NCBI RefSeq assembly: GCF_024502345.1
Contig: NZ_JALDNN010000001.1
Source of the DNA: Escherichia coli
Lineage (GTDB): Bacteria > Pseudomonadota > Gammaproteobacteria > Enterobacterales > Enterobacteriaceae
Direction: 5' to 3' (one strand)
Length of the DNA stretch: 64,000 nt
Position numbers and translations under genes: made by a program. Under the pieces are notes generated by a model. The model saw nothing but the letters and a program-made list of their open reading frames with translations, did no database searches and was not told the DNA's origin. Shown here piece after piece: positions 1 through 15,407 of this stretch. Positions within the stretch are counted from its first letter, which is position 1. Each line of letters starts with the position of its first letter.

Positions 1-672
1 GACCGTTCCGTGGCAAAGCAAAAGTTCAAAATCACCAACTGGCCCACCTACAATAAAGCCCTCATCAACCGTGGCTCCATAACTTTCTGGCTGGATGATG
101 AAGCTATTCAGGCCTGGTATGAGTCAGCAACACCTTCTTCACGAGGCAGACCTCAGCGCTATTCTGACCTTGCCATCACGACTGTGCTGGTCATTAAACG
201 CGTATTCAGGCTGACCCTGCGCGCTGCGCAGGGCTTTATTGATTCCATTTTTTCTCTGATGAACGTTCCGCTACGCTGCCCGGATTACAGCTGTGTCAGC
301 AGGCGGGCAAAGTCGGTTAATGTCAGTTTCAAAACGCCCACCCGGGGTGAAATCGCACACCTGGTAATTGATTCCACCGGGCTGAAGGTCTTCGGTGAAG
401 GCGAGTGGAAAGTCAAAAAGCATGGCCAGGAACGCCGCCGTATCTGGCGTAAGCTGCATCTCGCCGTTGACAGTAAAACACATGAAATCATCTGCGCTGA
501 CCTGTCGCTGAACAACGTTACGGACTCAGAGGCCTTCCCCGGGTTAATCCGGCAAACCCACCGGAAAATCAGGTCAGCCGCCGCCGATGGCGCTTACGAT
601 ACCCGGCTATGTCACGATGAACTGCGGCGTAAGAAAATCAGCGCGCTTATCCCTCCCCGAAAAGGTGCGGGT
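1..672 (+). mobile_element. IS903-like (IS5 family) insertion sequence remnant; transposase N-terminal ~221 aa only, 3' part missing
   Basis: ORF 10..846 begins MAKQKFKITNWPTYNKALINRGS...RLCHDELRRKKISALIPPRKGAG, which I recognise as the IS903 transposase. The match ends near nt 672; downstream frame is read-through antisense to the GTPase gene. The element start lies at or beyond the window edge. Confidence 0.75.
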
Positions 673-1094
673 TGCATCACACCGTTCCAGAACTGCTCGT
701 CCACCGACAGCGCACGGTCATCAGCTTTGATGACCCACAGCACCAGGTCAAGCTCTGGCAGCATACGCCGGTACAGGGCGCGGTATTCATGGTCCCGTTG
801 TCCGTTCTCTCCCACGCCCGGTAAATCAACAATCACCAGACTGTGACGACCACTGCGCAGCCGGAAGCGCAGTATGTCGCGGGTGCAGGCGTTCACATCA
901 CTGACGGCGGAGACTTCCCCCCGAAAGAGTTCGTTACAGAGCGACGACTTACCGGCACCACTCTTGCCCATGATGCCAATCACCGGCTCGTAGTGGGTCA
1001 GATTCTGAATACGTTCAAGAATAAGCTGGCGAAGCGTATCGGGAAGCGACGCCAGCGGTTTTTCCAGGGCCTGAAGGCCATCAGTTTTATTCAT
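672..1094 (-). pseudogene. C-terminally truncated YfjP/YeeP-family GTPase
   Basis: ORF 612..1094 (-) has a P-loop GIMGKSGAGKSS and DLPGVGE motif typical of prophage YfjP/YkfA/YeeP GTPases. Only ~140 aa of an expected ~290 remain before the IS903 junction. Confidence 0.6.
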
Positions 1095-1726: not shown

Positions 1727-4540
1727 ATGCCAATGGAGAGCTGTACGCAAATGAACGCCGTAGAAATTGAACAAGCCATCACGGATCTTGCAGAGCAACC
1801 CTTTGATCCTATAGAGTTTCCTTATGCTTTTCTTGAAGCCTTTGGTAACAAGGAAACGACTGTCAAACGCTTGCGCGCCGGTGCATCAAACAAATCCGAC
1901 TTGGGCGGTGTTCTCCAGAGCAATAATATTCACATTCTGACCTGCGAAGCAGGGACTGTGACTCAGATGTTGGCCGCGCTCAAGGCTAGCCCTGCGACAA
2001 CTAAAGCCAAGGCGAAGTTCATCCTGGCTACAGATGGCAAAGATTTCGAAGCTGAAGACCTCGTTAGCGGTCAGACTGTCGCTTGCGCCTTTAAAGACTT
2101 CCCAGATCACTTCGGCTTTTTCTTGCCATTAGCAGGCATTAGCACAGTTCGTCAGATTTGTGAGAACTCCTTTGACATTCGGGCCACTAGCCGGCTGAAT
2201 CGTCTGTATGTCGAGTTGTTGAAAGATAACCCTACCTGGGGGACGGCGGAGCGACGTCATGACATGAACAAATTCATGACTCGGCTGATCTTTTGTTTTT
2301 TCGCTGAGGATACTGACATTTTCGTGGGTAAGGGACGCTTTACTGAAACCGTTGCGCAGATGAGTACAAGAGATTCGTCGAATACGCATGAAGTTATCGC
2401 TACCTTGTTTCGTGCCATGAACACCAGTAACAAAGATAGAGCCGCCGCTGGCATCCCGCGCTGGGCCAATGAGTTTCCTTATGTCAACGGACGCTTGTTC
2501 TCTGGGAGTAATGATGTACCACTGTTCAGTAAGATTGCACGGTCTTATTTGCTCCATGTGGGTAGCCTTGACTGGACCAAGATTAATCCGGATATCTTTG
2601 GCTCGATGATTCAGGCAATTGCCGAAGACGAAGAACGCGGAGAGCTGGGGATGCATTACACCAGCGTACCCAACATCTTAAAAGTTTTGAATCCACTATT
2701 TCTGGACGACCTGCGCGCAAAGCTGGATGAGGCGGGTGACAATCCGCGTATGTTGCTTAACCTGCGTAAGCGCATTTCCCACATCCGTGTGTTCGACCCA
2801 GCGTGCGGTTCTGGTAACTTTTTGGTTATCGCGTACAAGGAAATGCGTGCCATTGAGGCCGAAATCAACAAGCGGCGTAATGAGCCAGATCGCGCCTCGG
2901 ATATCCCACTTACCAACTTTCGCGGGATTGAACTAAGAGATTTCCCGGCAGAGATCGCCCGCCTTGCGCTTGTTATCGCTGAGTACCAATGTGATGTACT
3001 GTACCGTGGGCTGCGGTTGGCCTTGGCTGAGCTTCTTCCGTTACGCAACGAAAATTGGATTACCTGTGGCAATGCACTACGGCTCGACTGGTTAAGAATT
3101 TGCCCGCCGACAGGAACAGGTGTGAAATTACATGGCGATGACTTGTTTGGATCTCCGCTTGATCAGGCAGAGATCGACTTTGAGAATGAAGGCGGAGAGA
3201 CATACATTTGCGGTAACCCACCATACCTTGGTTCAAAGTGGCAGACGGATGAACATAAAGCTGATCTTGGCACAATCTTTTCTGGTCGCGTGAAAAATTG
3301 GAAATCGCTCGATTATGTTGCTGGCTGGTTCCTGAAAGCCGCTGACTATGGTAGCCAGACAAGTTCCCAGGCTGCTTTTGTTGCCACTAATTCAATCAGC
3401 CAAGGGCAGCAAGTGTCGATTCTGTGGCCGGAAATATTCAAGGCAGGACAAGAGATTAGTTTCGCTTACACGAGCTTTAAGTGGTCGAACCTCGCTACTC
3501 ACAACGCCGGGGTCACAGTTGTTATCATCGGAATTTCTAACTGTGTAGGAAAGTCGCGACGCCTCTTTTCGGCTGGAGGAGACAATGGTGCGACGACGTG
3601 TCGTGAGGTGGAGCGCATCAACGCCTATTTGATCGCTGGCCCTAACATCATTGTGGAGGGGGACAGTTGTCCAGCCGACAGTCTTGCAACGATGCAGTTC
3701 GGTAACCACCCGTACTATGGTGCATCACTGATCTTTTCGAGATCTGAAGCACAGCAGATGATGTCTGTCGATCCGCGTACGGCGCGTTTTATTCGCCCAC
3801 TATATGGCTCCCAAGAGTTCATTTCCGCTGTGCCACGAGCCTGTCTATGGATTAACGACGATGAGGCTGACGAAGCGGGGACGATTCCTCTGATAGCTGA
3901 GCGTATGAGCGCCGTAGCAAGTGCTAGACGTGCAAAAAAACAAGACAAGGCAGCCCAGAAACTGGCTAAGACTCCATATCGCTTTCGCGACCAGCAGACA
4001 TCTACGAATCATATTCTTGTGGTTCCTCGAGTCAGTTCAGAGAACCGTCCTTGCTTGCCGGTTGGATTACTTGACTCTGACTCTATCGTTCAAGATCAAG
4101 CATTCGCCCTTTACGACGCTCCTCTCTGGAACCTCGCCATCATAGCGAGTCGCCTGCATCTAGTTTGGATCGCCACGGTTTGTGGAAAGTTAGAGACACG
4201 CTACCGCTATTCAAACACCCTCGGCTGGAATACTTTCCCGCTCCCAACACTCACTGAGAAAAATAAGGCAGACCTCACGCGCTGTGCAGAGGATATTCTT
4301 CTGACTAGGGAGCATCACTTCCCTGCAACCATTGCAGACCTTTATGACCCCGAGAAGATGCCAGACGACCTGCGTATTGTGCACGAGCGTAATGACGAAG
4401 TGCTTGAGCGTATTTACATTGGGCGCCGCTTTAAGAATGACACAGAGCGGCTTGAGAAGCTGTTTGACCTTTATACTAAGATGGCCGCTTCAACTGCATC
4501 GGGCAAAAGCAATAAACGTAAAGTGGGAACCAATGCATGA
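1727..4540 (+). CDS. MmeI-family (type IIG/IIL-like) N6-adenine DNA methyltransferase with target-recognition region; N-terminal nuclease motif apparently degenerate
   Basis: 937-aa ORF. SAM motif I FDPACGSGNFLV, catalytic motif IV GNPPY, and MmeI/PglX hallmarks FPYVNGRLF, HYTSVPNILKVLNPLFLDDL, FVATNSISQGQQVSILWP, RYRYSNTLGWNTFP, LYDPEKMP. Alternative start at 1751 (MNAVEIEQ). Confidence 0.85.
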   Translation: MPMESCTQMNAVEIEQAITDLAEQPFDPIEFPYAFLEAFGNKETTVKRLRAGASNKSDLGGVLQSNNIHILTCEAGTVTQMLAALKASPATTKAKAKFILATDGKDFEAEDLVSGQTVACAFKDFPDHFGFFLPLAGISTVRQICENSFDIRATSRLNRLYVELLKDNPTWGTAERRHDMNKFMTRLIFCFFAEDTDIFVGKGRFTETVAQMSTRDSSNTHEVIATLFRAMNTSNKDRAAAGIPRWANEFPYVNGRLFSGSNDVPLFSKIARSYLLHVGSLDWTKINPDIFGSMIQAIAEDEERGELGMHYTSVPNILKVLNPLFLDDLRAKLDEAGDNPRMLLNLRKRISHIRVFDPACGSGNFLVIAYKEMRAIEAEINKRRNEPDRASDIPLTNFRGIELRDFPAEIARLALVIAEYQCDVLYRGLRLALAELLPLRNENWITCGNALRLDWLRICPPTGTGVKLHGDDLFGSPLDQAEIDFENEGGETYICGNPPYLGSKWQTDEHKADLGTIFSGRVKNWKSLDYVAGWFLKAADYGSQTSSQAAFVATNSISQGQQVSILWPEIFKAGQEISFAYTSFKWSNLATHNAGVTVVIIGISNCVGKSRRLFSAGGDNGATTCREVERINAYLIAGPNIIVEGDSCPADSLATMQFGNHPYYGASLIFSRSEAQQMMSVDPRTARFIRPLYGSQEFISAVPRACLWINDDEADEAGTIPLIAERMSAVASARRAKKQDKAAQKLAKTPYRFRDQQTSTNHILVVPRVSSENRPCLPVGLLDSDSIVQDQAFALYDAPLWNLAIIASRLHLVWIATVCGKLETRYRYSNTLGWNTFPLPTLTEKNKADLTRCAEDILLTREHHFPATIADLYDPEKMPDDLRIVHERNDEVLERIYIGRRFKNDTERLEKLFDLYTKMAASTASGKSNKRKVGTNA

Positions 4541-6582
4541 GCAACAAGATTAGATCTGTACCGTCAGTTTCTGTTACCTACTCACGCAACGGAGCATCGA
4601 CCAAGGCTAATTCTCTTGGGATGCGTCCTATGCAAGAAAGGGCTTATGAGAAGCGCGGAGAACAATATCTTCTCATAAAGTCGCCGCCCGCCTCTGGCAA
4701 GAGTCGTGCGCTGATGTTCGTCGCACTCGATAAACTCGCAAACCAGGGGATCAAACAGGCAATCATTGTCGTGCCGGAAAAATCTATCGGCGCGAGCTTC
4801 AACGATGAACCGCTATCGCAGTTTGGATTCTGGGCTGATTGGCATGTTGAACCTAAGTGGAATCTGTGCAACGCCCCCGGTAACGACAACGGCGGCAAGG
4901 TAAAATCTTTCGGCTCTTTTCTTGAAAGTAGCGACAAGGTGCTTGTTTGTACACACGCAACCTTTCGCTTCGCGGTCGATGCCTACGGTGTAGAGGCGTT
5001 TGACGATCGCCTGATCGCCGTCGATGAATTTCACCATGTGTCCGCTAACCCGGATAACAAGCTTGGTCAGCATCTGGGACAGTTCATTGAGCGTGACAAG
5101 ACGCACATCGTGGCCATGACCGGCTCCTACTTCCGGGGAGATGCGGAAGCCGTTTTGGCTCCTCAGGATGAGTCTAGGTTCGATACCGTCACCTACACCT
5201 ACTACGAACAACTCAACGGTTACGAATACCTCAAACAGCTTGATATCGGATACTTCTTTTATAGTGGATCATACATTGATGACATCCTCAATGTCCTCGA
5301 TCCTGACAAGAAAACGATTATCCATATTCCCAACGTCAATTCGCGCGAGAGTACGAAGGATAAAATTAAGGAGGTGGAGCACATTCTGAGCGAGCTTGGC
5401 GATTGGCAAGGTGCGGATCCTACGACTGGTTTTCAGCTAGTCAAGCGCCCCGATGGCCATGTGTTGCGTATTGCTGACCTGGTGGACCCAGCCAGTCAAG
5501 GCAAGATTCAGGAAAGCCTCCGAGCTCCAGAAATGAAGACAGACCGTGACTATGTAGACATCATTATTGCACTTGGTATGGCGAAGGAAGGTTTCGACTG
5601 GATCTGGTGCGAACATGCGCTGACTGTTGGCTACCGTGCCAGCCTGACTGAGATCGTGCAGATTATCGGTCGCGCTACTCGCGACGCGCCGGGTAAAACC
5701 CGCGCGAGATTTACTAACTTGATCGCCGAGCCCGACGCTGTAGAGGGCGCAGTAACTGAGGCAGTCAACGATACCTTGAAAGCTATCGCGGCGAGCCTGT
5801 TGATGGAACAGGTACTGGCTCCGCGCTTCGAGTTCAAGCCCAAGAATCCTGAAATCGGTCCGACTCCAGGCTTTGATTATGGTGATGGAGGATATGACCC
5901 GGATAGCTGCAATTTTGGTGTTAATGAGCAGACAGGGACGTATCAAATCGAGATTAAGGGACTTGCCGAGCCTAGGAGCAAAGAGGCGGCACGTATCTGC
6001 CAGGAAGATTTAAACGAAGTGATCGCGGCCTTTGTGCAGGATAAGCCCGCCATCGAACGAGGCCTGTTCGATGAAGAGCTGATCCCTGAAGAGTTAACAC
6101 AGGTTCGTATGGGTAAGATCATCAAAGAAAAGTATCCTGAACTTGATGCTGAAGATCAGGAGGCTGTACGTCAGCATGCTATCGCCGCCCTTAACCTCAC
6201 GCAGCAGGCCAAGCGTCTTGCTACCGGTGAAAACGATGGGACGCTCAATACTGCTCTTATTGACGGAGTGCGTCGCTTTGCAATGGATGTGCGCGATTTA
6301 GACATAGACCTTATCGACCGCATCAATCCCTTTGGTGAAGCCTACGCTATCCTTGCTAAGACGATGAGTGAAGACAGTTTGAAGCAGGTCGCGGCGGCCA
6401 TCTCGGCCAAGCGTACTTCGATCACGCCTGAAGATGCCAAGGTGATCGCCAAGCGTGCCGCTGAATTCAAACGTGAACGTGGGCGCCTCCCATCGTTAAC
6501 TTCGCTGGATGCTTGGGAAAAACACCTTGCTGAAGGTGCAGCCGCGTTTATGCGTTTTAGGGCGGAGGGACGTTATGAGTAA
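4537..6582 (+). CDS. SF2 DExH-box helicase with ~280-aa C-terminal extension of unknown function
   Basis: 681-aa ORF. Walker A PPASGKS, motif II VDEFHH, motif III MTGSY, motif VI QIIGRATR. Start ATG overlaps the methyltransferase stop (ATGA at 4537-4540). Confidence 0.8.
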   Translation: MSNKIRSVPSVSVTYSRNGASTKANSLGMRPMQERAYEKRGEQYLLIKSPPASGKSRALMFVALDKLANQGIKQAIIVVPEKSIGASFNDEPLSQFGFWADWHVEPKWNLCNAPGNDNGGKVKSFGSFLESSDKVLVCTHATFRFAVDAYGVEAFDDRLIAVDEFHHVSANPDNKLGQHLGQFIERDKTHIVAMTGSYFRGDAEAVLAPQDESRFDTVTYTYYEQLNGYEYLKQLDIGYFFYSGSYIDDILNVLDPDKKTIIHIPNVNSRESTKDKIKEVEHILSELGDWQGADPTTGFQLVKRPDGHVLRIADLVDPASQGKIQESLRAPEMKTDRDYVDIIIALGMAKEGFDWIWCEHALTVGYRASLTEIVQIIGRATRDAPGKTRARFTNLIAEPDAVEGAVTEAVNDTLKAIAASLLMEQVLAPRFEFKPKNPEIGPTPGFDYGDGGYDPDSCNFGVNEQTGTYQIEIKGLAEPRSKEAARICQEDLNEVIAAFVQDKPAIERGLFDEELIPEELTQVRMGKIIKEKYPELDAEDQEAVRQHAIAALNLTQQAKRLATGENDGTLNTALIDGVRRFAMDVRDLDIDLIDRINPFGEAYAILAKTMSEDSLKQVAAAISAKRTSITPEDAKVIAKRAAEFKRERGRLPSLTSLDAWEKHLAEGAAAFMRFRAEGRYE

Positions 6583-7753
6583 TTCTGATTTAGACGATTT
6601 GGCGGCAGAACTTGCTGAATTTGCACCACCGGAGAAGAAAAAAGGACGTCCAGCCAGCGAGGAACGCATCATCGCAGGTTTTGAGGAAATCCAGCGCTTC
6701 GCTGACCAACATGGACGTGCGCCGCAACACGGCGAAGAGCGTGAGATCTTTGAGCGCCTCTATGCAGTGCGGCTCGACCGGCTACGCAGTCTCCCAGACT
6801 GCCGTGCCTTGCTAGAGCCGCTGGATCATCAAGGCTTATTGGCTGGAGGGGGTGATGTAGCGGAGTCAGCGGACGAAATTATCGATATCGATAATTTGGC
6901 TGCCGAACTGACGGATGTTTCCAGCGAGGATGATATCACAGTCTTGCGTCATGTTCGTGCTAGCGCCGAAAAGCGTGCTGTACAAGGGATCGCGGATCGC
7001 AAGCCGTGCGAGGATTTTGATACATTCAAACCGCTATTTGAACAGGTGCGCAGTGATCTAAGTTCAGGGTTAAGAGTGACCCGACCTTTTGGACAGTATG
7101 CAACGATTGAAGTGGGCCATTGGTTCATCCTGGATGGTCAAACGGCTTATGTGGCTGAGGAAGGTGAAGAGTTCGATTCTCCACAGGGGAAGAAAGATGC
7201 TCGGCTGCGTGTCATTTATTCGAATGGTACAGAAAGTAACCTGCTTCGGCTGTCATTAGTTCGTGCTTTGTATAAAGACGAAACAGCACGTCGAATTACC
7301 GATCCAGACATGGGGCCTTTATTCAGCGATGCTCTAGAAGAGAGCGATCTAGAAAGTGGCACCATTTATGTATTGCGTTCGCTATCAGATAACCCTTATG
7401 TGGCCGAACATCGTGATGTTATTCACAAGATTGGTGTGACTGGCGGCAAGGTCGAGACTCGTATTGCTAATGCTGAACACGATTCCACCTATCTGTTGGC
7501 GAAGGTAGAGGTGGTCGCTTCATACAAACTCGCAGGTATCAACCGCACCCGGATGGAAAACCTGTTTCACAGGTTGTTTGCACCCGCAAGGCTTAACATT
7601 ACCATTAACGACCGTTTCGGCCATCCAGTACAGCCCGAGGAATGGTTTCTCGTTCCGTTATTCGTTATCGATGAGGCTGTTGCACGTATTAAGGATGGTA
7701 GCATCATTGGGTATGTTTATGACCCCATGTCTGCGAAACTGGTGAAGGCATAG
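6575..7753 (+). CDS. T5orf172/MUG113 (GIY-YIG superfamily) domain protein, candidate nuclease, with acidic N-terminal domain of unknown function
   Basis: C-terminal GTIYVLRS...HKIGVTGGKVETRIANAEH...PEEWFLVPL fits the T5orf172 GIY-YIG-like pattern. GGAGGGA Shine-Dalgarno 6 nt upstream of ATG 6575; start overlaps the helicase stop (taa 6580-6582). The ORF track's upstream ATG at 6509 lacks an RBS. Confidence 0.65.
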   Translation: MSNSDLDDLAAELAEFAPPEKKKGRPASEERIIAGFEEIQRFADQHGRAPQHGEEREIFERLYAVRLDRLRSLPDCRALLEPLDHQGLLAGGGDVAESADEIIDIDNLAAELTDVSSEDDITVLRHVRASAEKRAVQGIADRKPCEDFDTFKPLFEQVRSDLSSGLRVTRPFGQYATIEVGHWFILDGQTAYVAEEGEEFDSPQGKKDARLRVIYSNGTESNLLRLSLVRALYKDETARRITDPDMGPLFSDALEESDLESGTIYVLRSLSDNPYVAEHRDVIHKIGVTGGKVETRIANAEHDSTYLLAKVEVVASYKLAGINRTRMENLFHRLFAPARLNITINDRFGHPVQPEEWFLVPLFVIDEAVARIKDGSIIGYVYDPMSAKLVKA

Positions 7754-7868: not shown

Positions 7869-8660
7869 ATGAATAGTAACCTGACCAAGATATGTTACCG
7901 TGGTGAGACTGGTGAAAGTGATCTAAGAACGTTGATACTTGGTGAGATTCTATATATCTCACTACGAGATGTTTTAATCACGCTGAATAAAGAAAATAGA
8001 GAAATCAACGCTGATTACACAGTAAAATCGATGGCTGGAATAATCAGGGCGCAATTACAGGCTCTTGACCCTGATGAGTATATTACTACAGATGCTGAAA
8101 ATGGTGTTTTTGAAGGTCAGAAAGAGATCTTCGTCACCCAGCCAGGTTTGTATCGAGTCATGTCAAGTGACCGAAGCGCTGCCGGTAAGCGCTTTCAAAA
8201 ATGGTTATTTCATGAAGTCATACCATCATTGACTAAGCATGGTGTATACCCGCCTCCGCCAGAAGCGAAAGGTTCAGCCCTTGCACAAATGGCTGAGATA
8301 CTTGCTCAAAATTCGCGAGCACTTGCTGACGCAATCCATAAACACGAAAAACTGGCCGAAGATGTCTCACAGGTTAAAGGTAAAGTTGCCAACGTTGAAA
8401 GCCGTCTGGAACTGTTAGAATCAGGTCCTTCCACTGTAACTGAAGATATGCATACTCTTGATAGCCGTCTCGCTTATTTGGACATGAGCATGGAAGAAAA
8501 GCATACCACCGAGACATTAGCCTGGTGCGAGAATATTTCTGTTCAAAATAACAGGAAGGTGATTCGCAAGGACTGTAGGGAGAATTCGCTCTTTACAACG
8601 CAGACTATCGACGAAGCAATCGCTATCATGACTGAAAGTGGAAAAATCACACCAAATTGA
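7869..8660 (+). CDS. Bro-N (KilA-N/antirepressor-like) domain protein with coiled-coil C-terminus
   Basis: 263-aa ORF. N-terminal ...DLRTLILGEILYISLRDVLITL...GLYRVMSSDRSAAGKRFQKWLFHEVIPSLTKHGVY resembles the Bro-N fold pattern. GAGGAT RBS upstream. Confidence 0.55.
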   Translation: MNSNLTKICYRGETGESDLRTLILGEILYISLRDVLITLNKENREINADYTVKSMAGIIRAQLQALDPDEYITTDAENGVFEGQKEIFVTQPGLYRVMSSDRSAAGKRFQKWLFHEVIPSLTKHGVYPPPPEAKGSALAQMAEILAQNSRALADAIHKHEKLAEDVSQVKGKVANVESRLELLESGPSTVTEDMHTLDSRLAYLDMSMEEKHTTETLAWCENISVQNNRKVIRKDCRENSLFTTQTIDEAIAIMTESGKITPN

Positions 8661-8716
8661 AGATCCTGGGGTTCAGATTATCTGCTGGCTATCTTATTGA
8701 GCTCTGACGTAAAATA

Positions 8717-8739
8717 GGCCTTCCCACAAAGAGAAGGCC
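8717..8739 (-). terminator. Intrinsic terminator hairpin for the minus-strand YfjJ-like gene, between convergent genes
   Basis: ggccttc / 9-nt loop / gaaggcc, followed on the minus strand by tatttt. Confidence 0.45.
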
Positions 8740-8748
8740 ATTGCCGAC

Positions 8749-9375
8749 TTACAGATCGATTTGGCTACAGCCGAAGTTACGGTCTCCTTCACCAAACACT
8801 TTGCTTTCGACTTTGGTGAGGTAATCCAGTCGGGTTAACAGCGCTTGGTAGTTATGCTGGAAGTCAGCATTATTGGTATCCAGCACGTACTTACAGTTGT
8901 CAGGAAAATGGACCAGACCAGGGTGATCATCCAGTTTCAGTCCCAGGGCGCTGTACCACGCTCCCGTAATCATCCCTCTCAGGTTATCGTGCTGATCGTA
9001 ATCCCCGAGGTGGTAGTAAGCGTCTTTGTTGAACAACAGGCAAATGTGGTAGTGGCATTTACCTGACTCAGAATACTCTTTCGCCCATATAATAAATAAA
9101 GGGCAACGGTAGATGCGTTTACCTTCACGCTCCTTACGGGTACGGTCAGCCTCCAGTTTAGCTCTGAGGGAATCACGCATTCGGGATATCACCCCTGGTT
9201 CAAGATTAGGGAAACAGCAGATATTGTCTCCGTTATCGACTATCTTCGGATAATGCAGATCGACACGTACCGCCGTTAACCTGGGGTAACGGTTAGTCAA
9301 ATAACATAATAATTTTTTAATCTTGATCTGATATTCGAGGATATGTACTCCATGAGTACCTTGATATGTTTTCAT
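8749..9375 (-). CDS. YfjJ/YagK-family (inovirus Gp2-like) prophage protein
   Basis: 208-aa ORF resembling the YagK/YfjJ family of CP4-type islands; in the island-backbone position expected from K-12 CP4-57. Confidence 0.65.
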   Translation of the reverse strand: MKTYQGTHGVHILEYQIKIKKLLCYLTNRYPRLTAVRVDLHYPKIVDNGDNICCFPNLEPGVISRMRDSLRAKLEADRTRKEREGKRIYRCPLFIIWAKEYSESGKCHYHICLLFNKDAYYHLGDYDQHDNLRGMITGAWYSALGLKLDDHPGLVHFPDNCKYVLDTNNADFQHNYQALLTRLDYLTKVESKVFGEGDRNFGCSQIDL

Positions 9376-11085: not shown

Positions 11086-11245
11086 CTCAGATTCATTTTT
11101 GTGCGTAAAAGTGTATTTTTTATTGGAAATGTTTTTTACTCCTTATAATTAACATTGCTATTAATTAATCCTGTTTGTAAAGGAGAAGTTTATTAATAAG
11201 TAAAAGTCCGCCTGCATCAAGACACGATGAAAATGTCTTCCTTTC

Positions 11246-11458
11246 TTACTCTATTGCCCGGGTTCGTTGTAAAATCCATTCGTCTATTTCAGCCTCTATC
11301 CAGCCGACAGATTGCAGCCCCAGACGACGTTGTTTCGGGAACGTTGGGTCATAGCGTGGCGATTTCGGATTGATCCAGTCATAGATTGTTGAACGTGACA
11401 AGCCCGTTTTGTCAATTACTGTAGAAAGACGAAGTATTTTAACATTAGATTTGTTCAT
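11246..11458 (-). CDS. alpA: AlpA-family prophage transcriptional regulator (excision activator)
   Basis: 70-aa ORF MNKSNVKILRLSTVIDKTGLSRSTIYDWINPKSPRYDPTFPKQRRLGLQSVGWIEAEIDEWI matches AlpA. Confidence 0.85.
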   Translation of the reverse strand: MNKSNVKILRLSTVIDKTGLSRSTIYDWINPKSPRYDPTFPKQRRLGLQSVGWIEAEIDEWILQRTRAIE

Positions 11459-11879
11459 AGCTGATTACCTCAAATCGAAGTGCTCTGGATGATGTGAGAT
11501 TAGCTTTAAGGCAGCCAATCTAAAATGTATGTGCCAAAAAAACTTTTTTTTACGAACGGGAAATAAATATCCTATTGAAATTTAATGATTTTATTTTTTT
11601 TCTGTCGGGTCCATCAGAACGGTGTGAATTCAGTTACAGCCTTCCGGTCCGGTAATGGGCCAGTTATATGTTGAGTGGCTGCGCTTCGATGACTTCTGTT
11701 TCAGTGGGCTGGTCTATCTCCGACGTGCTGTGGCAGGTAGCGGTTCAGCAGTAGCCATTATTCGTTCTGCTCCGTCAGTACCGCACCCAGCAGCCGCAAG
11801 ATGCTCTCTTCATTGGGAAGATACCTACCACTGTCAACGCCAAGATTGTTGGCCGTTTCGTCCGCATCCCCTATTGGTC

Positions 11880-12570
11880 ATTAATGTTGTCCGCTTTCCG
11901 CCGTTTCATCTCTTTGTTCAGGCGCTCCAGCGTGTTTGTGGAGTGGGTTTTTCACTTGGTGTGCTTTCGGGAGGCCGAAGGACGCCAGCACGTCTGCCTC
12001 TGCTTCGTCCATCACCCCGGTGACCGCCGGGTTGCTTTTCTCCCATTGACCGGCAACCTTGCACAGGTGGCATGGGCGCTTTTCTCGTCGGTCTGCACGA
12101 ACACCTGTTGCAGCGCCGCACGGACCACCGACTGGTTTGCACGGCTGACGCGGCTCAGCACGTTGCGCATGAAGTGGACCCGGCAGCGCTGCCAGCTGGC
12201 GGAGAACATCTGCCTATCGCCGCCTTCAGGCTCAGCAGGAAGGTCAGCCAGGATGCCGTTTATCCATGCTTCCTGGATAACCGCGTTGAGCGCCTTCTCA
12301 GACAATCTGTGGGCCTCCAGGAAGGGCGGGAAGTACGTCCCTTTAAGCAGCTTCGGAATACGCAGGTCCACAGCGTGCCGAGCTGGCGGGGACTGACGGT
12401 CACGATAGCCGTTGTGGTAGGTTTCGCGCTCATCGCTGCGCTAGTGGGCTCCGCGTTGATGTGCTGAGTGACATCTGCTTCCATAATGCAGTTGAGCATA
12501 AATTCGGTGAGTTCACGCAGAAAATCCTCGCCGCCGAGTAGCATCAGGGTGTTGCTGAATGTCATGCTGT
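11880..12570 (-). pseudogene. IS256-family (Mutator-type) transposase remnant, frameshifted with internal deletion
   Basis: Minus-strand fragments: 12260..12565 (MTFSNTLMLLGGEDFLRELTEFMLNCIMEADVTQ, typical N-terminus) and 12012..12371 (...QRCRVHFMRNVLSRV motif) in different frames; the DDE core between them is absent. Confidence 0.55.
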
Positions 12571-12784
12571 TGTCATTCCGAATTTACACCACGCCCTAAG
12601 ACTCTACCTTATTTTCTTTGCAAAGCAGGCTGCTTGTGCAAGTTGTACATGTAGTTAACAGGCAGTAAGTATGGCAAACCATTATTTCATGTCTTCACAT
12701 CTGGTTCTTCATTCAGTTAAGTAGTAAAAATGAAAGGGATGTCAGAGCAAGAACAGATGACGTTGTGTAACTGACCAATGAAGG

Positions 12785-13620: not shown

Positions 13621-14862
13621 TCAAACAACAAGTTTTAATGCACCGGCACTAGATTCTACCATGCTTCCTTTATCTGCTCTTTTAACAAAATCAGCCCACC
13701 ATTGCATCATCGGCCTACGTTGCTCAAGATAATCACTGCGGTTATAAGCGCGACGTACCTCATTTTTGTCTACATGAGCAAGTGCGGCTTCAATGACATC
13801 AGGAGGAAATCCTTGCTCATTGAGGGCTGTACTGGCGATAGAACGCAAACCATGTGAAACCAGCACTCCCCCTAAACCGGCACGCTTGAGTGCAGCATTC
13901 ACGGTTTGACTGTTCATCGGCTGAGTGGGCTTAATGCGGCTTGGAAAAATAAAATCTCGGCCACCACTGAGCGGCTTCATCATTTCCAGAATAGCCAGAG
14001 CCCCATCAGATAATGGAACGGTATGGTCCCGGTTCATTTTCATTCGGGCTGCTGGAATTTTCCATTCGTTAGCATCAAAATCGATCTCATTCCACCGAGC
14101 TTCTGCGGCTTCTGCGGGGCGGGTGATGGTGAGAAGTTGCCACATGAACAGACACCGCGTAGACAGGCTGATACTGGCCGTACGCATAGTTTGCATCAAC
14201 TGAGGCAACTGATCCGGACGAATACTGGGCATGTTCTTTTTCTGAGGTTTCTCGAAGGCTTTGCCAATATTAACACTGGGAACTGCATCAATCAGGCCCG
14301 TGTTTTGGGCATAAATCATGACTTCATTGATCCGTTGGCAAAGACGGCGGACAGTTTCCAGTGCTCCTCGGGCCTGAACGGGTTGAACGGCTTGAACCAG
14401 TGTATGGGCTTTAATATCTGTAACGCTTACGTTGCCAATTGCGGGAAATATATCTCTTTCAAGCGAACGCCAGATATCATCAGCATAGTCCTCGGTTACA
14501 CTGGCTTTCTTCACATTCCACCAACGCTCGGCAACTAACAAGAAAGTGTTGGTTTTGGCCTCCTGAGAATTTCTTATCTGTTCTTTTTGGTATTCCTGAG
14601 GATCGATTCCTTTTGCCAGTAATACTTTGGATTCAGCTCTGAGCTTACGAGCATCGGAAAGCGAGACAGCAGGATAGGAACCGAAGCTCTGTTTAGTTCG
14701 CTGTTTTGTCAGAGGTCGGTAATAACGGAATTGCCAGAGCTTACTGCCACTGGATTTGATTAGCAGCGTCAGTCCGTCACCATCATACAACTGATAATCG
14801 GCATCTTTAGATTTGGCTGCTTTGATTTCCGTATCCGTTAACGGCTTGGTTTTTCTTGCCAC
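13621..14862 (-). CDS. intA: P4-type tyrosine integrase of a CP4-57-like island (GTG start)
   Basis: 413-aa ORF beginning (M)ARKTKPLTDTEIKAAKSKDADYQLYDGDGLTLLIKSSGSKLWQFRYY, immediately downstream of ssrA on the same strand. Confidence 0.9.
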   Translation of the reverse strand: MARKTKPLTDTEIKAAKSKDADYQLYDGDGLTLLIKSSGSKLWQFRYYRPLTKQRTKQSFGSYPAVSLSDARKLRAESKVLLAKGIDPQEYQKEQIRNSQEAKTNTFLLVAERWWNVKKASVTEDYADDIWRSLERDIFPAIGNVSVTDIKAHTLVQAVQPVQARGALETVRRLCQRINEVMIYAQNTGLIDAVPSVNIGKAFEKPQKKNMPSIRPDQLPQLMQTMRTASISLSTRCLFMWQLLTITRPAEAAEARWNEIDFDANEWKIPAARMKMNRDHTVPLSDGALAILEMMKPLSGGRDFIFPSRIKPTQPMNSQTVNAALKRAGLGGVLVSHGLRSIASTALNEQGFPPDVIEAALAHVDKNEVRRAYNRSDYLEQRRPMMQWWADFVKRADKGSMVESSAGALKLVV

Positions 14863-15044: not shown

Positions 15045-15407
15045 TGGTGGAGCTGGCGGGAGTTGAACCCGCGTCCGAAATTCCTACATCCTCGGTACTA
15101 CATGCTTAGTCAGTCTTTACATTCGCTTGCCAGCTGCGGACGGACACGCCACTAACAAACTAGCCTGATTAAGTTTTAACGCTTCAACCCCAGGCAGGGC
15201 TTCCACGCGATCTCTTTTGGGTTTGACCTCTCTTGATCCCCGTCCTAAGAGCGGAGGCTAGGGAGAGAGGGCTCTAAGCAGGTTATTAAGCTGCTAAAGC
15301 GTAGTTTTCGTCGTTTGCGACTATTTTTTGCGGCTTTTTACGAGGCCAACCGCCCCTCGGCATGCACCTTGGGTTTCGCAAATCCCGTCGAATCCAGAAT
15401 CAGCCCC
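15045..15407 (-). ncRNA. ssrA: tmRNA (SsrA); its 3' end is the island integration site
   Basis: Reverse complement reads GGGGCTGATTCTGGATTCGACGGG...GGGTTCAACTCCCGCCAGCTCCACCA, with the tag-coding region and tRNA-like ends. Confidence 0.95.

What the first reader, a model, noticed from the sequence alone, without database searches (positions are those of the whole stretch)
1727..7753. Translationally coupled MmeI-family methyltransferase, DExH helicase and T5orf172 protein: candidate restriction-like defence cassette
Three same-strand genes are linked by start/stop overlaps (ATGA at 4537-4540; ATG 6575 overlapping helicase stop at 6580-6582, with a GGAGG RBS), which argues for one operon making stoichiometric partners. 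Gene 1 has MmeI/PglX hallmarks and the gamma-class N6-adenine methyltransferase motifs. Gene 2 is an SF2 DExH helicase and gene 3 carries a GIY-YIG-like T5orf172 domain. A modification enzyme with its own target-recognition region plus a separately encoded helicase and nuclease is not a canonical type I, II, III or IIG layout, nor a BREX or DISARM gene set as I know them. The cassette sits in the variable cargo slot of an ssrA-integrated island.
Basis: partly seen in the sequence, partly recalled or inferred. Interest (0 to 1): 0.88.

Follow-up and report, generated by a model that had tools for sequence, protein, structure and literature searches.

The report
YeeA/YeeB/YeeC-type three-gene restriction-modification cassette
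The three overlapping genes are real and form a widespread module (a DNA methylase that has lost its own cutting site, a helicase and a GIY-YIG-type nuclease). This module was first described in 2009 as the YeeA/YeeB/YeeC group, so it is a further example of a known but still mechanistically unsolved restriction-like system, not a new one.

Summary
Three same-strand genes (1751-4540, 4537-6582, 6575-7753) are joined by a 4-nt and an 8-nt overlap, and the domain calls are correct.

- **Gene 1** has all five MmeI domains, but the catalytic D70/E80/K82 of MmeI's nuclease are replaced by L/T/E.
- **Gene 2** is an SF2 DExH ATPase with invariant motifs.
- **Gene 3** ends in a T5orf172/GIY-YIG domain with invariant motif residues.

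The trio is a tight module. Among 80 helicase loci from many phyla, the methylase lies upstream in 70 of 71 and the T5orf172 gene follows in 77 of 77. No other flanking gene is conserved. The methylase target-recognition domain is hypervariable (34-42% identity) while the rest is 94-100% identical between E. coli alleles.

The novelty claim fails. Morgan et al. 2009 described this architecture (B. subtilis YeeA/YeeB/YeeC) and proposed a type I-like mechanism. DnmA (YeeA) was shown to make m6A at GACGAG. yeeAB confers phage resistance in Vibrio crassostreae. The B. subtilis copy showed no defence.

The cleavage mechanism is still uncharacterised, and no solved structure matched the helicase or the nuclease by sequence. 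Verdict: a new member of a known kind, of moderate-low interest, but a tractable E. coli model for an open mechanistic question.

The parts
1751..4540 (+). [quoted passage not shown] An alternative upstream ATG lies at 1727.
   Evidence: Pfam finds five MmeI domains. MmeI (5HR4) aligns from residue 96 onward with E 4e-138. The PGAP start is at 1751. PADLOC model REase_MTase_IIG PDLC03598 matches full length.
1751..2227 (+). N-terminal MmeI_N-like domain with the PD-(D/E)XK catalytic triad lost (MmeI D70/E80/K82 correspond to L/T/E here). It is conserved and is the presumed docking domain for the partner proteins.
   Evidence: MAFFT alignment with verified MmeI. The catalytic residues are taken from PMC4833311. 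The domain is conserved across 69 homologues. The docking role is inferred, following Morgan 2009.
2792..2821 (+). SAM-binding motif I, FDPACGSGNF
   Evidence: Aligned to MmeI FDPACGCGNF. Invariant in the family.
3215..3226 (+). Catalytic motif IV, NPPY
   Evidence: Aligned to MmeI NPPF. GNPP is conserved in the family.
3638..4252 (+). Target-recognition domain (TRD), hypervariable between alleles
   Evidence: Pfam MmeI_TRD matches residues 638-842 of the 937-aa ORF. Identity drops to 34-42% here against 94-100% elsewhere in another E. coli allele. The region is not conserved in 69 homologues.
4537..4540 (+). ATGA overlap of the gene 1 stop and the gene 2 start
   Evidence: Sequence read directly. 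The same 4-nt overlap is seen in P. aeruginosa, S. fredii and S. maltophilia.
4537..6582 (+). Gene 2: YeeB-type SF2 DExH ATPase/helicase, 681 aa. It has a RecA-like core (about residues 28-430) and a conserved helical C-terminal region.
   Evidence: Pfam DEAD/ResIII. K55, D163 E164 H166 H167, Q375 G378 R379 R382 are invariant in 22 diverse relatives. The AlphaFold2 model has pLDDT 77.9. Foldseek finds only generic SF2 cores, including HsdR of EcoR124I.
4684..4704 (+). Walker A / helicase motif I, PPASGKS
   Evidence: Invariant P50 P51 A52 G54 K55 S56.
5023..5037 (+). Helicase motif II, DEFHH (DExH box)
   Evidence: Invariant D163 E164 H166 H167.
5659..5682 (+). Helicase motif VI, QIIGRATR
   Evidence: Invariant Q375 G378 R379 T381 R382.
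6564..6568 (+). GGAGG ribosome-binding site for gene 3, inside the 3' end of gene 2
   Evidence: Sequence read directly.
6575..6582 (+). 8-nt overlap of the gene 3 start (ATG 6575) with the gene 2 end (TAA 6580-6582)
   Evidence: Sequence read directly. The same -8 junction is present in 63 of 77 related loci.
6575..7753 (+). Gene 3: YeeC-type protein, 392 aa. It has an N-terminal helical domain, a disordered linker, a small beta-barrel middle domain and a C-terminal T5orf172/GIY-YIG-superfamily domain.
7358..7690 (+). T5orf172 (GIY-YIG-like) domain with conserved motif residues
   Evidence: Invariant G262 Y265 V266 R268, H284 K285 G287 V288 T289, R296, E328, H332, E356 W357 F358 in 58 homologues.

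Best explanation
This is an intact E. coli copy of the YeeA(DnmA)/YeeB/YeeC-type three-component restriction-modification-like system, carried as cargo in an ssrA-integrated island.

Shown:
- Gene 1 is an MmeI-family methyltransferase with a built-in, allele-variable target-recognition domain. Its N-terminal MmeI-type nuclease domain has lost the catalytic D...ExK residues.
- It is translationally coupled to an SF2 DExH ATPase and a T5orf172/GIY-YIG-type protein. All of their catalytic-type motifs are invariant across phyla.
- The three genes are inherited as one module.

Inferred mechanism:
- The methylase subunit reads a short asymmetric site and methylates one adenine on one strand, as MmeI and DnmA do.
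- Its degenerate N-terminal domain recruits the helicase and the nuclease.
- On unmethylated foreign DNA the site-bound complex uses ATP to translocate or slide. The GIY-YIG subunit then cuts away from the site, probably only when two complexes from oppositely oriented unmodified sites meet.
- This matches type ISP and type III enzymes. It is the known way to tolerate hemi-methylated sites, which leave one daughter duplex unmodified after replication.
- Restriction therefore depends on the methylase subunit, so loss of the methylase is not lethal.

A tentative reading of the MmeI specificity code predicts a site of the form 5'-G N G (G/R) A C-3' with m6A at position 5.
For: Architecture and catalytic residues:
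- Searches give the domain calls, and searches show the nuclease triad is lost.
- Searches show the MTase, helicase and T5orf172 motifs are invariant.

Module conservation:
- The MTase lies upstream in 70/71 loci and the T5orf172 gene downstream in 77/77, across Proteobacteria, Cyanobacteria, Verrucomicrobia, Planctomycetota, Gemmatimonadetes and Nitrospinota.
- No other flanking gene is conserved.
- The same trio occurs on a Lactiplantibacillus plasmid at 37/45/31% identity with the same 8-nt overlap, and in distant relatives.

RM-like evolution:
- The TRD is hypervariable while the helicase and nuclease are 96-97% identical between E. coli alleles.
- Known or candidate defence genes (AbiD, PDC-S05, PDC-S11, DUF262-like) are inserted between MTase and helicase in 43 of 73 loci, as seen in type I RM operons.

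Literature:
- Morgan 2009 proposed the same subunit model.
- DnmA methylates GACGAG, and loss of dnmA causes no growth defect.
- yeeAB inactivation sensitises V. crassostreae to a phage group.

Methylase dependence:
- A Providencia plasmid keeps the helicase and nuclease intact with the MTase destroyed by IS5.

Specificity guess:
- Residue mapping was read against the code in PMC4833311.
Against: - The B. subtilis dnmA-yeeB-yeeC operon gave no restriction of plasmid transformation and no protection against three phages. Its authors regard it as a relic with an orphan methylase.
- In the papers I could search, no biochemical demonstration exists of ATPase, translocation, complex formation or cleavage for any member.
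- No solved structure matched the helicase or the nuclease by sequence.
- The head-to-head collision step is pure analogy.
- Expression in this strain is untested, and the promoter scan was uninformative.
Confidence: 0.6

Rival explanations
1. Orphan methylase plus relic. Only the methyltransferase matters, for epigenetic gene regulation as proposed for B. subtilis DnmA. The helicase and T5orf172 genes are functionless remnants of a former restriction system.
For: B. subtilis data show no restriction of transformation and no phage protection, while m6A at GACGAG affects promoter activity.
Against: Every catalytic-type residue of the helicase and the T5orf172 protein is invariant across 58-79 loci from many phyla. 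The translational coupling is also conserved, and relics would decay. The helicase is more conserved than the methylase. yeeAB confers phage resistance in V. crassostreae. The B. subtilis YeeB/YeeC are reported to lack C-terminal stretches, so that copy may be atypical.
Confidence: 0.15
2. Methylation-guided exclusion without site-dependent DNA cleavage (BREX-like), or an abortive-infection response. The methylase marks self DNA. The helicase/T5orf172 pair blocks replication of unmarked DNA, or damages DNA or RNA indiscriminately once triggered.
For: The DnmA motif is not depleted in Bacillus phage genomes. The authors note this argues against a canonical RM mode. PglX of BREX and DrmMI of DISARM give partial matches to gene 1. 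T5orf172 domains are described as of uncertain function.
Against: No BREX or DISARM partner genes are present. GIY-YIG-type residues are invariant. The minimal three-gene set mirrors the nuclease + motor + MTase-TRD composition of type ISP enzymes.
Confidence: 0.17
3. Gene 1 is a self-contained type IIL/IIG restriction-modification enzyme, as PADLOC labels it. Genes 2 and 3 are a separate, independent helicase-nuclease defence system that merely sits next to it.
For: The PADLOC model REase_MTase_IIG matches gene 1 end to end at E 3.9e-284. All five MmeI domains, including MmeI_N, are detected.
Against: The residues shown by mutagenesis to be essential for MmeI cleavage (D70, E80, K82) are L, T and E here. 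They are not conserved in any YeeA-type homologue examined. YeeA itself lacked endonuclease activity under the conditions tested. The helicase is accompanied by the methylase in 70 of 71 loci, often with overlapping codons.
Confidence: 0.03
4. The module serves the mobile element rather than the host, for example as an addiction or stabilisation module or in competition between elements. It acts on incoming plasmids or islands rather than on phages.
For: It is carried on integrative islands, on conjugative plasmids (262 plasmid records, 118 of them conjugative) and next to integrases or resolvases. It is almost absent from phage genomes.
Against: This is not exclusive of restriction, since RM systems are known to behave this way. 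Loss of the methylase appears tolerated, which argues against classic post-segregational killing.
Confidence: 0.05

Closest known systems
[quoted passage not shown] 2009)
   Same: Same three-gene order and composition: an MmeI homologue without the PD-ExK motif, a DEAD/DExH helicase and a GIY-YIG/T5orf172 protein. The synteny is the same as reported across bacteria.
   Different: This is an E. coli/Enterobacterales allele with its own TRD. It is only about 37/45/31% identical to the Firmicutes-type trio I could retrieve. The B. subtilis copy is reported inactive in defence and shortened at the C-termini of YeeB/YeeC. The copy here is full length relative to the family.
MmeI (type IIL / IIG single-chain restriction-modification enzyme)
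   Same: All five domains are shared. Identity is 32% over residues 89-928, with the same gamma-class N6-adenine MTase motifs and TRD scaffold, including the E806/R808/R810 specificity positions.
   Different: The catalytic D70/E80/K82 of the nuclease domain are lost. The first roughly 95 residues do not align by sequence search. The protein is obligatorily partnered with a helicase and a separate nuclease, whereas MmeI-type enzymes have no conserved neighbours.
Type ISP enzymes (LlaGI, LlaBIII)
   Same: The same functional parts list: nuclease, SF2 motor, gamma-MTase and a TRD reading a continuous asymmetric site with one-strand methylation. This is the best mechanistic analogue (inference).
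   Different: Type ISP is one polypeptide in the order nuclease-motor-MTase-TRD, with an Mrr-type PD-QxK nuclease. Here there are three polypeptides in the order MTase-TRD, motor, nuclease, and the nuclease is of GIY-YIG type. No type ISP structure appeared among the top Foldseek hits for the helicase.
Type I restriction-modification systems (HsdM/HsdS/HsdR)
   Same: Separate modification/specificity and motor components. HsdR of EcoR124I is among the structural matches of the helicase. Operons accept embedded defence cargo genes. Morgan 2009 called the trio type I-like.
   Different: There is no separate S subunit, the site is not bipartite, and methylation is presumed on one strand. The nuclease is a separate GIY-YIG protein rather than a PD-ExK domain fused to the motor. 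No HsdM/S/R family model matched significantly beyond weak MTase hits.
DISARM class 1 (DrmMI) and BREX (PglX/BrxX) methyltransferases
   Same: Partial homology of the MTase/TRD region (DrmMI E 7e-32; PglX around 1e-6). All use a large gamma-class adenine MTase for self-marking.
   Different: None of the other DISARM (DrmA/B/C/D) or BREX (BrxA/B/C/L, PglZ) genes is present. All NCBIfam BREX scores are far below their cut-offs.

Membership tests
YeeA/YeeB/YeeC-type (DnmA-type) three-gene system, as defined by Morgan 2009 and Fernandez 2023 | The methylase is an MmeI homologue that is highly similar to MmeI beyond roughly the first 100 residues | tested here: met
   MmeI (5HR4) aligns at query residues 96-458 and 493-935 with E 4.4e-138. 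The N-terminal 172 aa alone finds nothing in the PDB.
YeeA/YeeB/YeeC-type (DnmA-type) three-gene system | The methylase lacks the PD-ExK endonuclease motif | tested here: met
   MmeI D70/E80/K82 align with L/T/E in the window protein and with non-conserved residues in 10 close and 3 distant homologues. The catalytic roles come from PMC4833311.
YeeA/YeeB/YeeC-type (DnmA-type) three-gene system | A DEAD-superfamily helicase gene lies immediately downstream, followed by a GIY-YIG/T5orf172 gene on the same strand | tested here: met
   Searches show this in the window. The order is conserved in 70/71 and 77/77 related loci.
YeeA/YeeB/YeeC-type (DnmA-type) three-gene system | Direct sequence homology of genes 2 and 3 to B. 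subtilis YeeB and YeeC themselves | not tested
   The B. subtilis sequences were not retrievable with the available collections. The nearest proxy is a Lactiplantibacillus (Bacillota) plasmid trio at 45% and 31% identity over full length.
YeeA/YeeB/YeeC-type (DnmA-type) three-gene system | Site-specific m6A methylation by the YeeA-type protein | not testable with these tools
   The motif I and NPPY residues are intact. Methylome data are needed.
Type IIL/IIG (MmeI family proper) | An N-terminal PD-(D/E)XK endonuclease active site in the same polypeptide | tested here: not met
Type IIL/IIG (MmeI family proper) | Stand-alone gene without conserved partner genes | tested here: not met
   Partners are conserved in 70/71 and 77/77 loci. 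Morgan 2009 reports that nuclease-bearing homologues have no consistent neighbours.
Type ISP | A single polypeptide with an Mrr-like nuclease, translocase, gamma-MTase and TRD | tested here: not met
   There are three separate ORFs with stop codons at 4538-4540 and 6580-6582. The nuclease is T5orf172, not Mrr.
Type ISP | ATP-dependent translocation and cleavage requiring head-to-head sites | not testable with these tools
   Biochemistry is required.
Type I RM | Separate HsdS specificity subunit and an HsdR with fused PD-ExK nuclease | tested here: not met
   The TRD is inside gene 1. There were no HsdS or HsdR family hits.
BREX / DISARM | Presence of the core partner genes (PglZ, BrxC, BrxL; or DrmA, DrmB, DrmC/D) | tested here: not met
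   There were no such hits for genes 2-4. PglX models score 21-26 bits against cut-offs of 400-900.

The most novel reading that the evidence does not exclude
The module may be a functional, mechanistically distinct class of ATP-dependent restriction enzyme. It would be a split, type ISP-like machine in which a nuclease-dead MmeI-type methylase/TRD subunit licenses a separate SF2 motor and a GIY-YIG nuclease, with host protection by one-strand methylation. None of its biochemistry appears in the papers I could search, although the architecture has been known since 2009. This intact E. coli allele would be the natural model in which to solve it. A related point is new as far as I could find: the MTase-helicase junction acts as a docking slot for other defence genes.
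Probability: 0.5. Interest if true: 0.55.

Novelty: new member of a known kind. Interest (0 to 1): 0.33.

Why it matters
The family is very large. More than 8000 90%-identity clusters were found for both the methylase and the helicase, and 2682 50%-identity helicase clusters. It occurs in 156 of 5426 complete E. coli genomes, and in Klebsiella, Salmonella, Pseudomonas and Acinetobacter, including on conjugative plasmids.

Even so, PADLOC 2.0 does not model it as a three-gene system. It matches only the methylase, as a type IIG enzyme. In the papers I could search, no enzymology is reported for the helicase or the nuclease.

A native E. coli allele makes the 2009 hypothesis (a type I-like restriction enzyme using single-strand methylation and a GIY-YIG nuclease) directly testable in the standard host. 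For the scan itself, the lesson is that this finding is a correct observation of a known system, not a discovery.

Tried and rejected
- **Sequence search of the PDB.** The gene 1 N-terminal domain alone, the helicase and gene 3 found nothing usable.
- **Family libraries.** PADLOC and NCBIfam gave no system-level name and no hits at all for gene 3.
- **Promoter/terminator scan.** It was no better than shuffled sequence.
- **Link to B. subtilis YeeB by name.** Cluster look-ups of distant helicase representatives returned no Bacillus entry.
- **Later literature.** Searches for a later name or mechanism (T5orf172 + methyltransferase + helicase; DnmA + phage defense; a BREX-diversity paper; an EcoSal RM review) found nothing beyond the 2009-2023 papers.
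- **Fourth gene.** I considered the downstream BRO-N gene (7869-8660) as a fourth component and rejected it. No up- or downstream gene is conserved across 75 loci.
- **Alternative starts.** I rejected the 6509 start for gene 3 and the 1727 start for gene 1.

Full report
**Observation**

ORF listing and direct reading of the sequence confirm three same-strand genes.
- The helicase ATG (4537-4539) overlaps the gene 1 TGA (4538-4540).
- The gene 3 ATG (6575-6577) lies 5 nt before the helicase TAA (6580-6582), with GGAGG at 6564-6568.

Two details need correcting.
- Gene 1 most likely starts at ATG 1751, giving 929 aa. PGAP uses that start in a 99.9% identical E. coli chromosome, and all homologues begin MNAVEIE.
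- The longest gene 3 ORF starts at 6509, but PGAP and the family alignment support 6575.

The ssrA context is right. The integrase lies at 13621-14862 (-) and the tmRNA at 15045-15407 (-). E. coli 2013C-4282 has the same order: trio, BRO-N, inovirus-Gp2-like gene, yagL, intA, ssrA, smpB.

**What the three proteins are**

Gene 1:
- It carries all five Pfam MmeI domains: N, helical spacer, MTase, TRD and C.
- It aligns to MmeI (PDB 5HR4) from residue 96 to the end with E 4e-138. FDPACGSGNF aligns with MmeI motif I, and GNPPY with GNPPF.
- PADLOC matches it end to end to a 'Type IIG restriction enzyme-methyltransferase' model.
- The N-terminal roughly 95 residues do not align by sequence search.
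- I checked my copy of the MmeI sequence by exact look-up and aligned the N-termini. The residues whose mutation abolishes MmeI cleavage are D70, E80 and K82 (PMC4833311). They correspond to L, T and E in the window protein.
- The same positions hold non-conserved residues in ten close and three distant homologues.
- So gene 1 keeps an MmeI_N-like domain under purifying selection, but not its nuclease active site.

Gene 2:
- It is an SF2 ATPase (Pfam DEAD/ResIII).
- Walker A K55, D163-E164-x-H166-H167 and Q375/G378/R379/R382 are invariant among 22 relatives at 41-69% identity.
- An AlphaFold2 model (pLDDT 77.9) matches only generic SF2 cores. These include Hel308, DEAD-box proteins, WRN, MrfA and HsdR of EcoR124I, at TM about 0.35.
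- No solved structure is a sequence relative.

Gene 3:
- It has a C-terminal MUG113/T5orf172 domain at residues 262-372.
- The residues G262, Y265, V266, R268, H284, K285, G287, V288, T289, R296, E328, H332, E356, W357 and F358 are invariant in 58 homologues.
- Its model (pLDDT 75.9) shows an N-terminal helical domain, a disordered linker, a small beta-barrel and the C-terminal domain.

**Is the trio a unit?**

Yes.
- Exact-sequence look-ups of methylase homologues placed the same three genes, with the same 4-nt and 8-nt overlaps, in P. aeruginosa, Sinorhizobium fredii and Stenotrophomonas maltophilia. The neighbours there are unrelated.
The 80 best loci are 74-90% identical. They span alpha-, beta- and gamma-Proteobacteria, Cyanobacteria, Verrucomicrobia, Planctomycetota, Gemmatimonadetes and Nitrospinota.
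- In those loci the methylase lies upstream on the same strand in 70 of 71 cases with enough sequence. The T5orf172 gene follows the helicase in 77 of 77.
- The -8 junction recurs in 63 of 77 loci.
- No gene upstream of the methylase or downstream of the nuclease is conserved. The module is therefore exactly these three genes, and the BRO-N gene at 7869-8660 is not part of it.
- Helicases at 41-45% identity still sit in the same trio: a TARA marine contig, a 2-Mb genome with gene 3 split in two, and a Lactiplantibacillus plantarum plasmid at 37/45/31% identity with the same 8-nt overlap.

The family is very large.
- More than 8000 90%-identity clusters were found for both methylase and helicase.
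- There are 2682 50%-identity helicase clusters.
- It occurs in 156 of 5426 complete E. coli genomes.
- It occurs in 262 plasmid records, 118 of them conjugative, and is essentially absent from phage genomes.

**Signatures of a restriction-modification lifestyle**

- Between this allele and the common E. coli allele, the helicase and nuclease are 96.6% and 96.9% identical. The methylase is 94-100% identical outside the TRD but only 34-42% identical within it. Across 69 homologues the TRD is the only unconserved region. This is the pattern expected of a specificity module that diversifies.
- In 43 of 73 related loci, one or two extra same-strand genes are inserted between methylase and helicase. 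Representatives match AbiD, PADLOC candidates PDC-S05 and PDC-S11, DUF262/HEC-05-like proteins and a PLD-like protein. Such embedded defence cargo is familiar from type I RM operons (my knowledge). The window carries the minimal, uninterrupted form.
- A Providencia plasmid retains an intact helicase and nuclease after IS5 destroyed the methylase. One of the 71 loci lacks the methylase. This suggests the partners are harmless without it.

**What is already known**

- Morgan et al. 2009 (PMC2731913) found a second group of MmeI homologues 'such as YeeA' of B. subtilis. These lack the endonuclease motif and differ in the first 100 residues. They are 'invariably' next to a DEAD-family helicase (YeeB-like) and a protein with GIY-YIG motifs (YeeC-like).
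- The same authors proposed that the MmeI-like subunit gives specificity and protective one-strand modification. In their model the N-terminal domain recruits the helicase and nuclease, making the system type I-like.
- Nye et al. 2020 showed that YeeA (DnmA) makes m6A at GACGAG. Loss of dnmA causes no growth defect, and plasmid transformation is not restricted.
- Fernandez et al. 2023 confirmed the conserved synteny. They found no protection against three Bacillus phages and called the B. subtilis locus a relic. They noted that its YeeB/YeeC lack C-terminal stretches.
- Piel et al. 2021 showed that yeeAB inactivation sensitises Vibrio crassostreae 7F1_18 to one phage group.
- I found no later paper naming or dissecting the system.

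**Mechanism**

Shown:
- a nuclease-dead MmeI-type methylase/TRD
- an ATPase-competent SF2 protein
- a GIY-YIG-type protein
- co-inheritance of the three genes with translational coupling

Inferred:
- The methylase subunit binds a short asymmetric site and methylates one strand.
- Unmethylated sites license the motor and nuclease, which cleave at a distance.
- One-strand methylation leaves one daughter duplex unmodified at each site after replication. Cleavage therefore probably requires two complexes converging from oppositely oriented unmodified sites. This is the solution used by type III and type ISP enzymes (type ISP described in PMC3874165).
- Dependence on the methylase subunit explains why losing the methylase is tolerated.

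I mapped the MmeI specificity positions onto the alignment. The substitutions are A723 to D, E751 to R, N773 to D and A774 to Q, while E806, R808 and R810 are retained. Read against the published code, this tentatively predicts 5'-G-N-G-(G/R)-A-C-3' with m6A at position 5. Confidence is low, because the code was derived for nuclease-bearing family members.

**Rivals**

- An orphan methylase with relic partners.
- Exclusion without cleavage, or abortive infection.
- A self-contained type IIL enzyme beside an unrelated helicase-nuclease. This is essentially excluded by the lost triad and the co-occurrence data.
- A role mainly for the mobile element.

**Verdict**

The cassette is not a new layout, however. 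It is the YeeA/YeeB/YeeC (DnmA) type known since 2009. It counts as a new member of a known kind.

Residual interest lies in the unsolved enzymology, the mis-annotation by PADLOC 2.0 as a type IIG enzyme, and the cargo slot inside the operon.

Noticed in passing
Related loci L008-L087, between the methylase and helicase genes (e.g. L065 4357-5501, L028 3161-5501, L083 2916-5501, L026 3485-5238): In 43 of 73 related loci, one or two extra same-strand genes are inserted between methylase and helicase. Representatives match AbiD, PADLOC candidates PDC-S05 and PDC-S11, DUF262/HEC-05-like and PLD-like proteins. The junction behaves as a docking slot for other defence genes. The window has the uninterrupted form.
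   Followed up: partly
L090 2987-13988: A variant architecture: an MmeI-like methylase, a 90-aa ORF, a 1181-aa helicase fused to an LRR_5 region (P0286), then AAA_5 and McrBC-like genes in place of the T5orf172 gene. It lies next to a type I HsdR.
   Followed up: no
L094 (Providencia rettgeri plasmid p06-1619-1) 3273-7803; also L052: IS5 has truncated the methylase to a 65-aa remnant, while the helicase and GIY-YIG genes remain annotated as intact. L052 also lacks the methylase. This suggests the partners are tolerated without the methylase.
   Followed up: partly
window 1727-4540 (PADLOC model PDLC03598): PADLOC 2.0 matches gene 1 end to end as a 'Type IIG restriction enzyme-methyltransferase' although the PD-ExK triad is lost. 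It gives only marginal PbeA matches for the helicase and no hit for the T5orf172 protein. It therefore does not detect the trio as one system.
   Followed up: yes
window 10-1094: An IS5-family transposase-like ORF (10-846, +) abuts and overlaps a truncated YfjP-like GTPase gene (612-1094, -). In related E. coli islands the intact GTPase gene (about 290 aa) precedes the cassette, with IS66 or other IS fragments between them.
   Followed up: partly
window 7869-9375: A BRO-N domain gene (7869-8660, +) and an inovirus Gp2-family gene (8749-9375, -) follow the cassette. They are present in E. coli 2013C-4282 but replaced by IS elements in KCJ3K291, and they are not conserved next to the trio elsewhere.
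   Followed up: yes
window about 11200-12600: Several mutually overlapping ORFs lie on both strands. The corresponding stretch of E. coli 2013C-4282 is annotated as a frameshifted IS256-family transposase, so this is probably an IS remnant.
   Followed up: no
window 6575-6850 and 6420-6582: The gene 3 N-terminus (ERIIAGFEEIQRFADQHGRAP) and the helicase C-terminus (AKRAAEFKRERGRLP) share a short F..(E/H)GR.P helix motif. It gave weak Pfam hits to HNH_repeat and PMBR. It may be a shared interaction or DNA-binding repeat.
   Followed up: no
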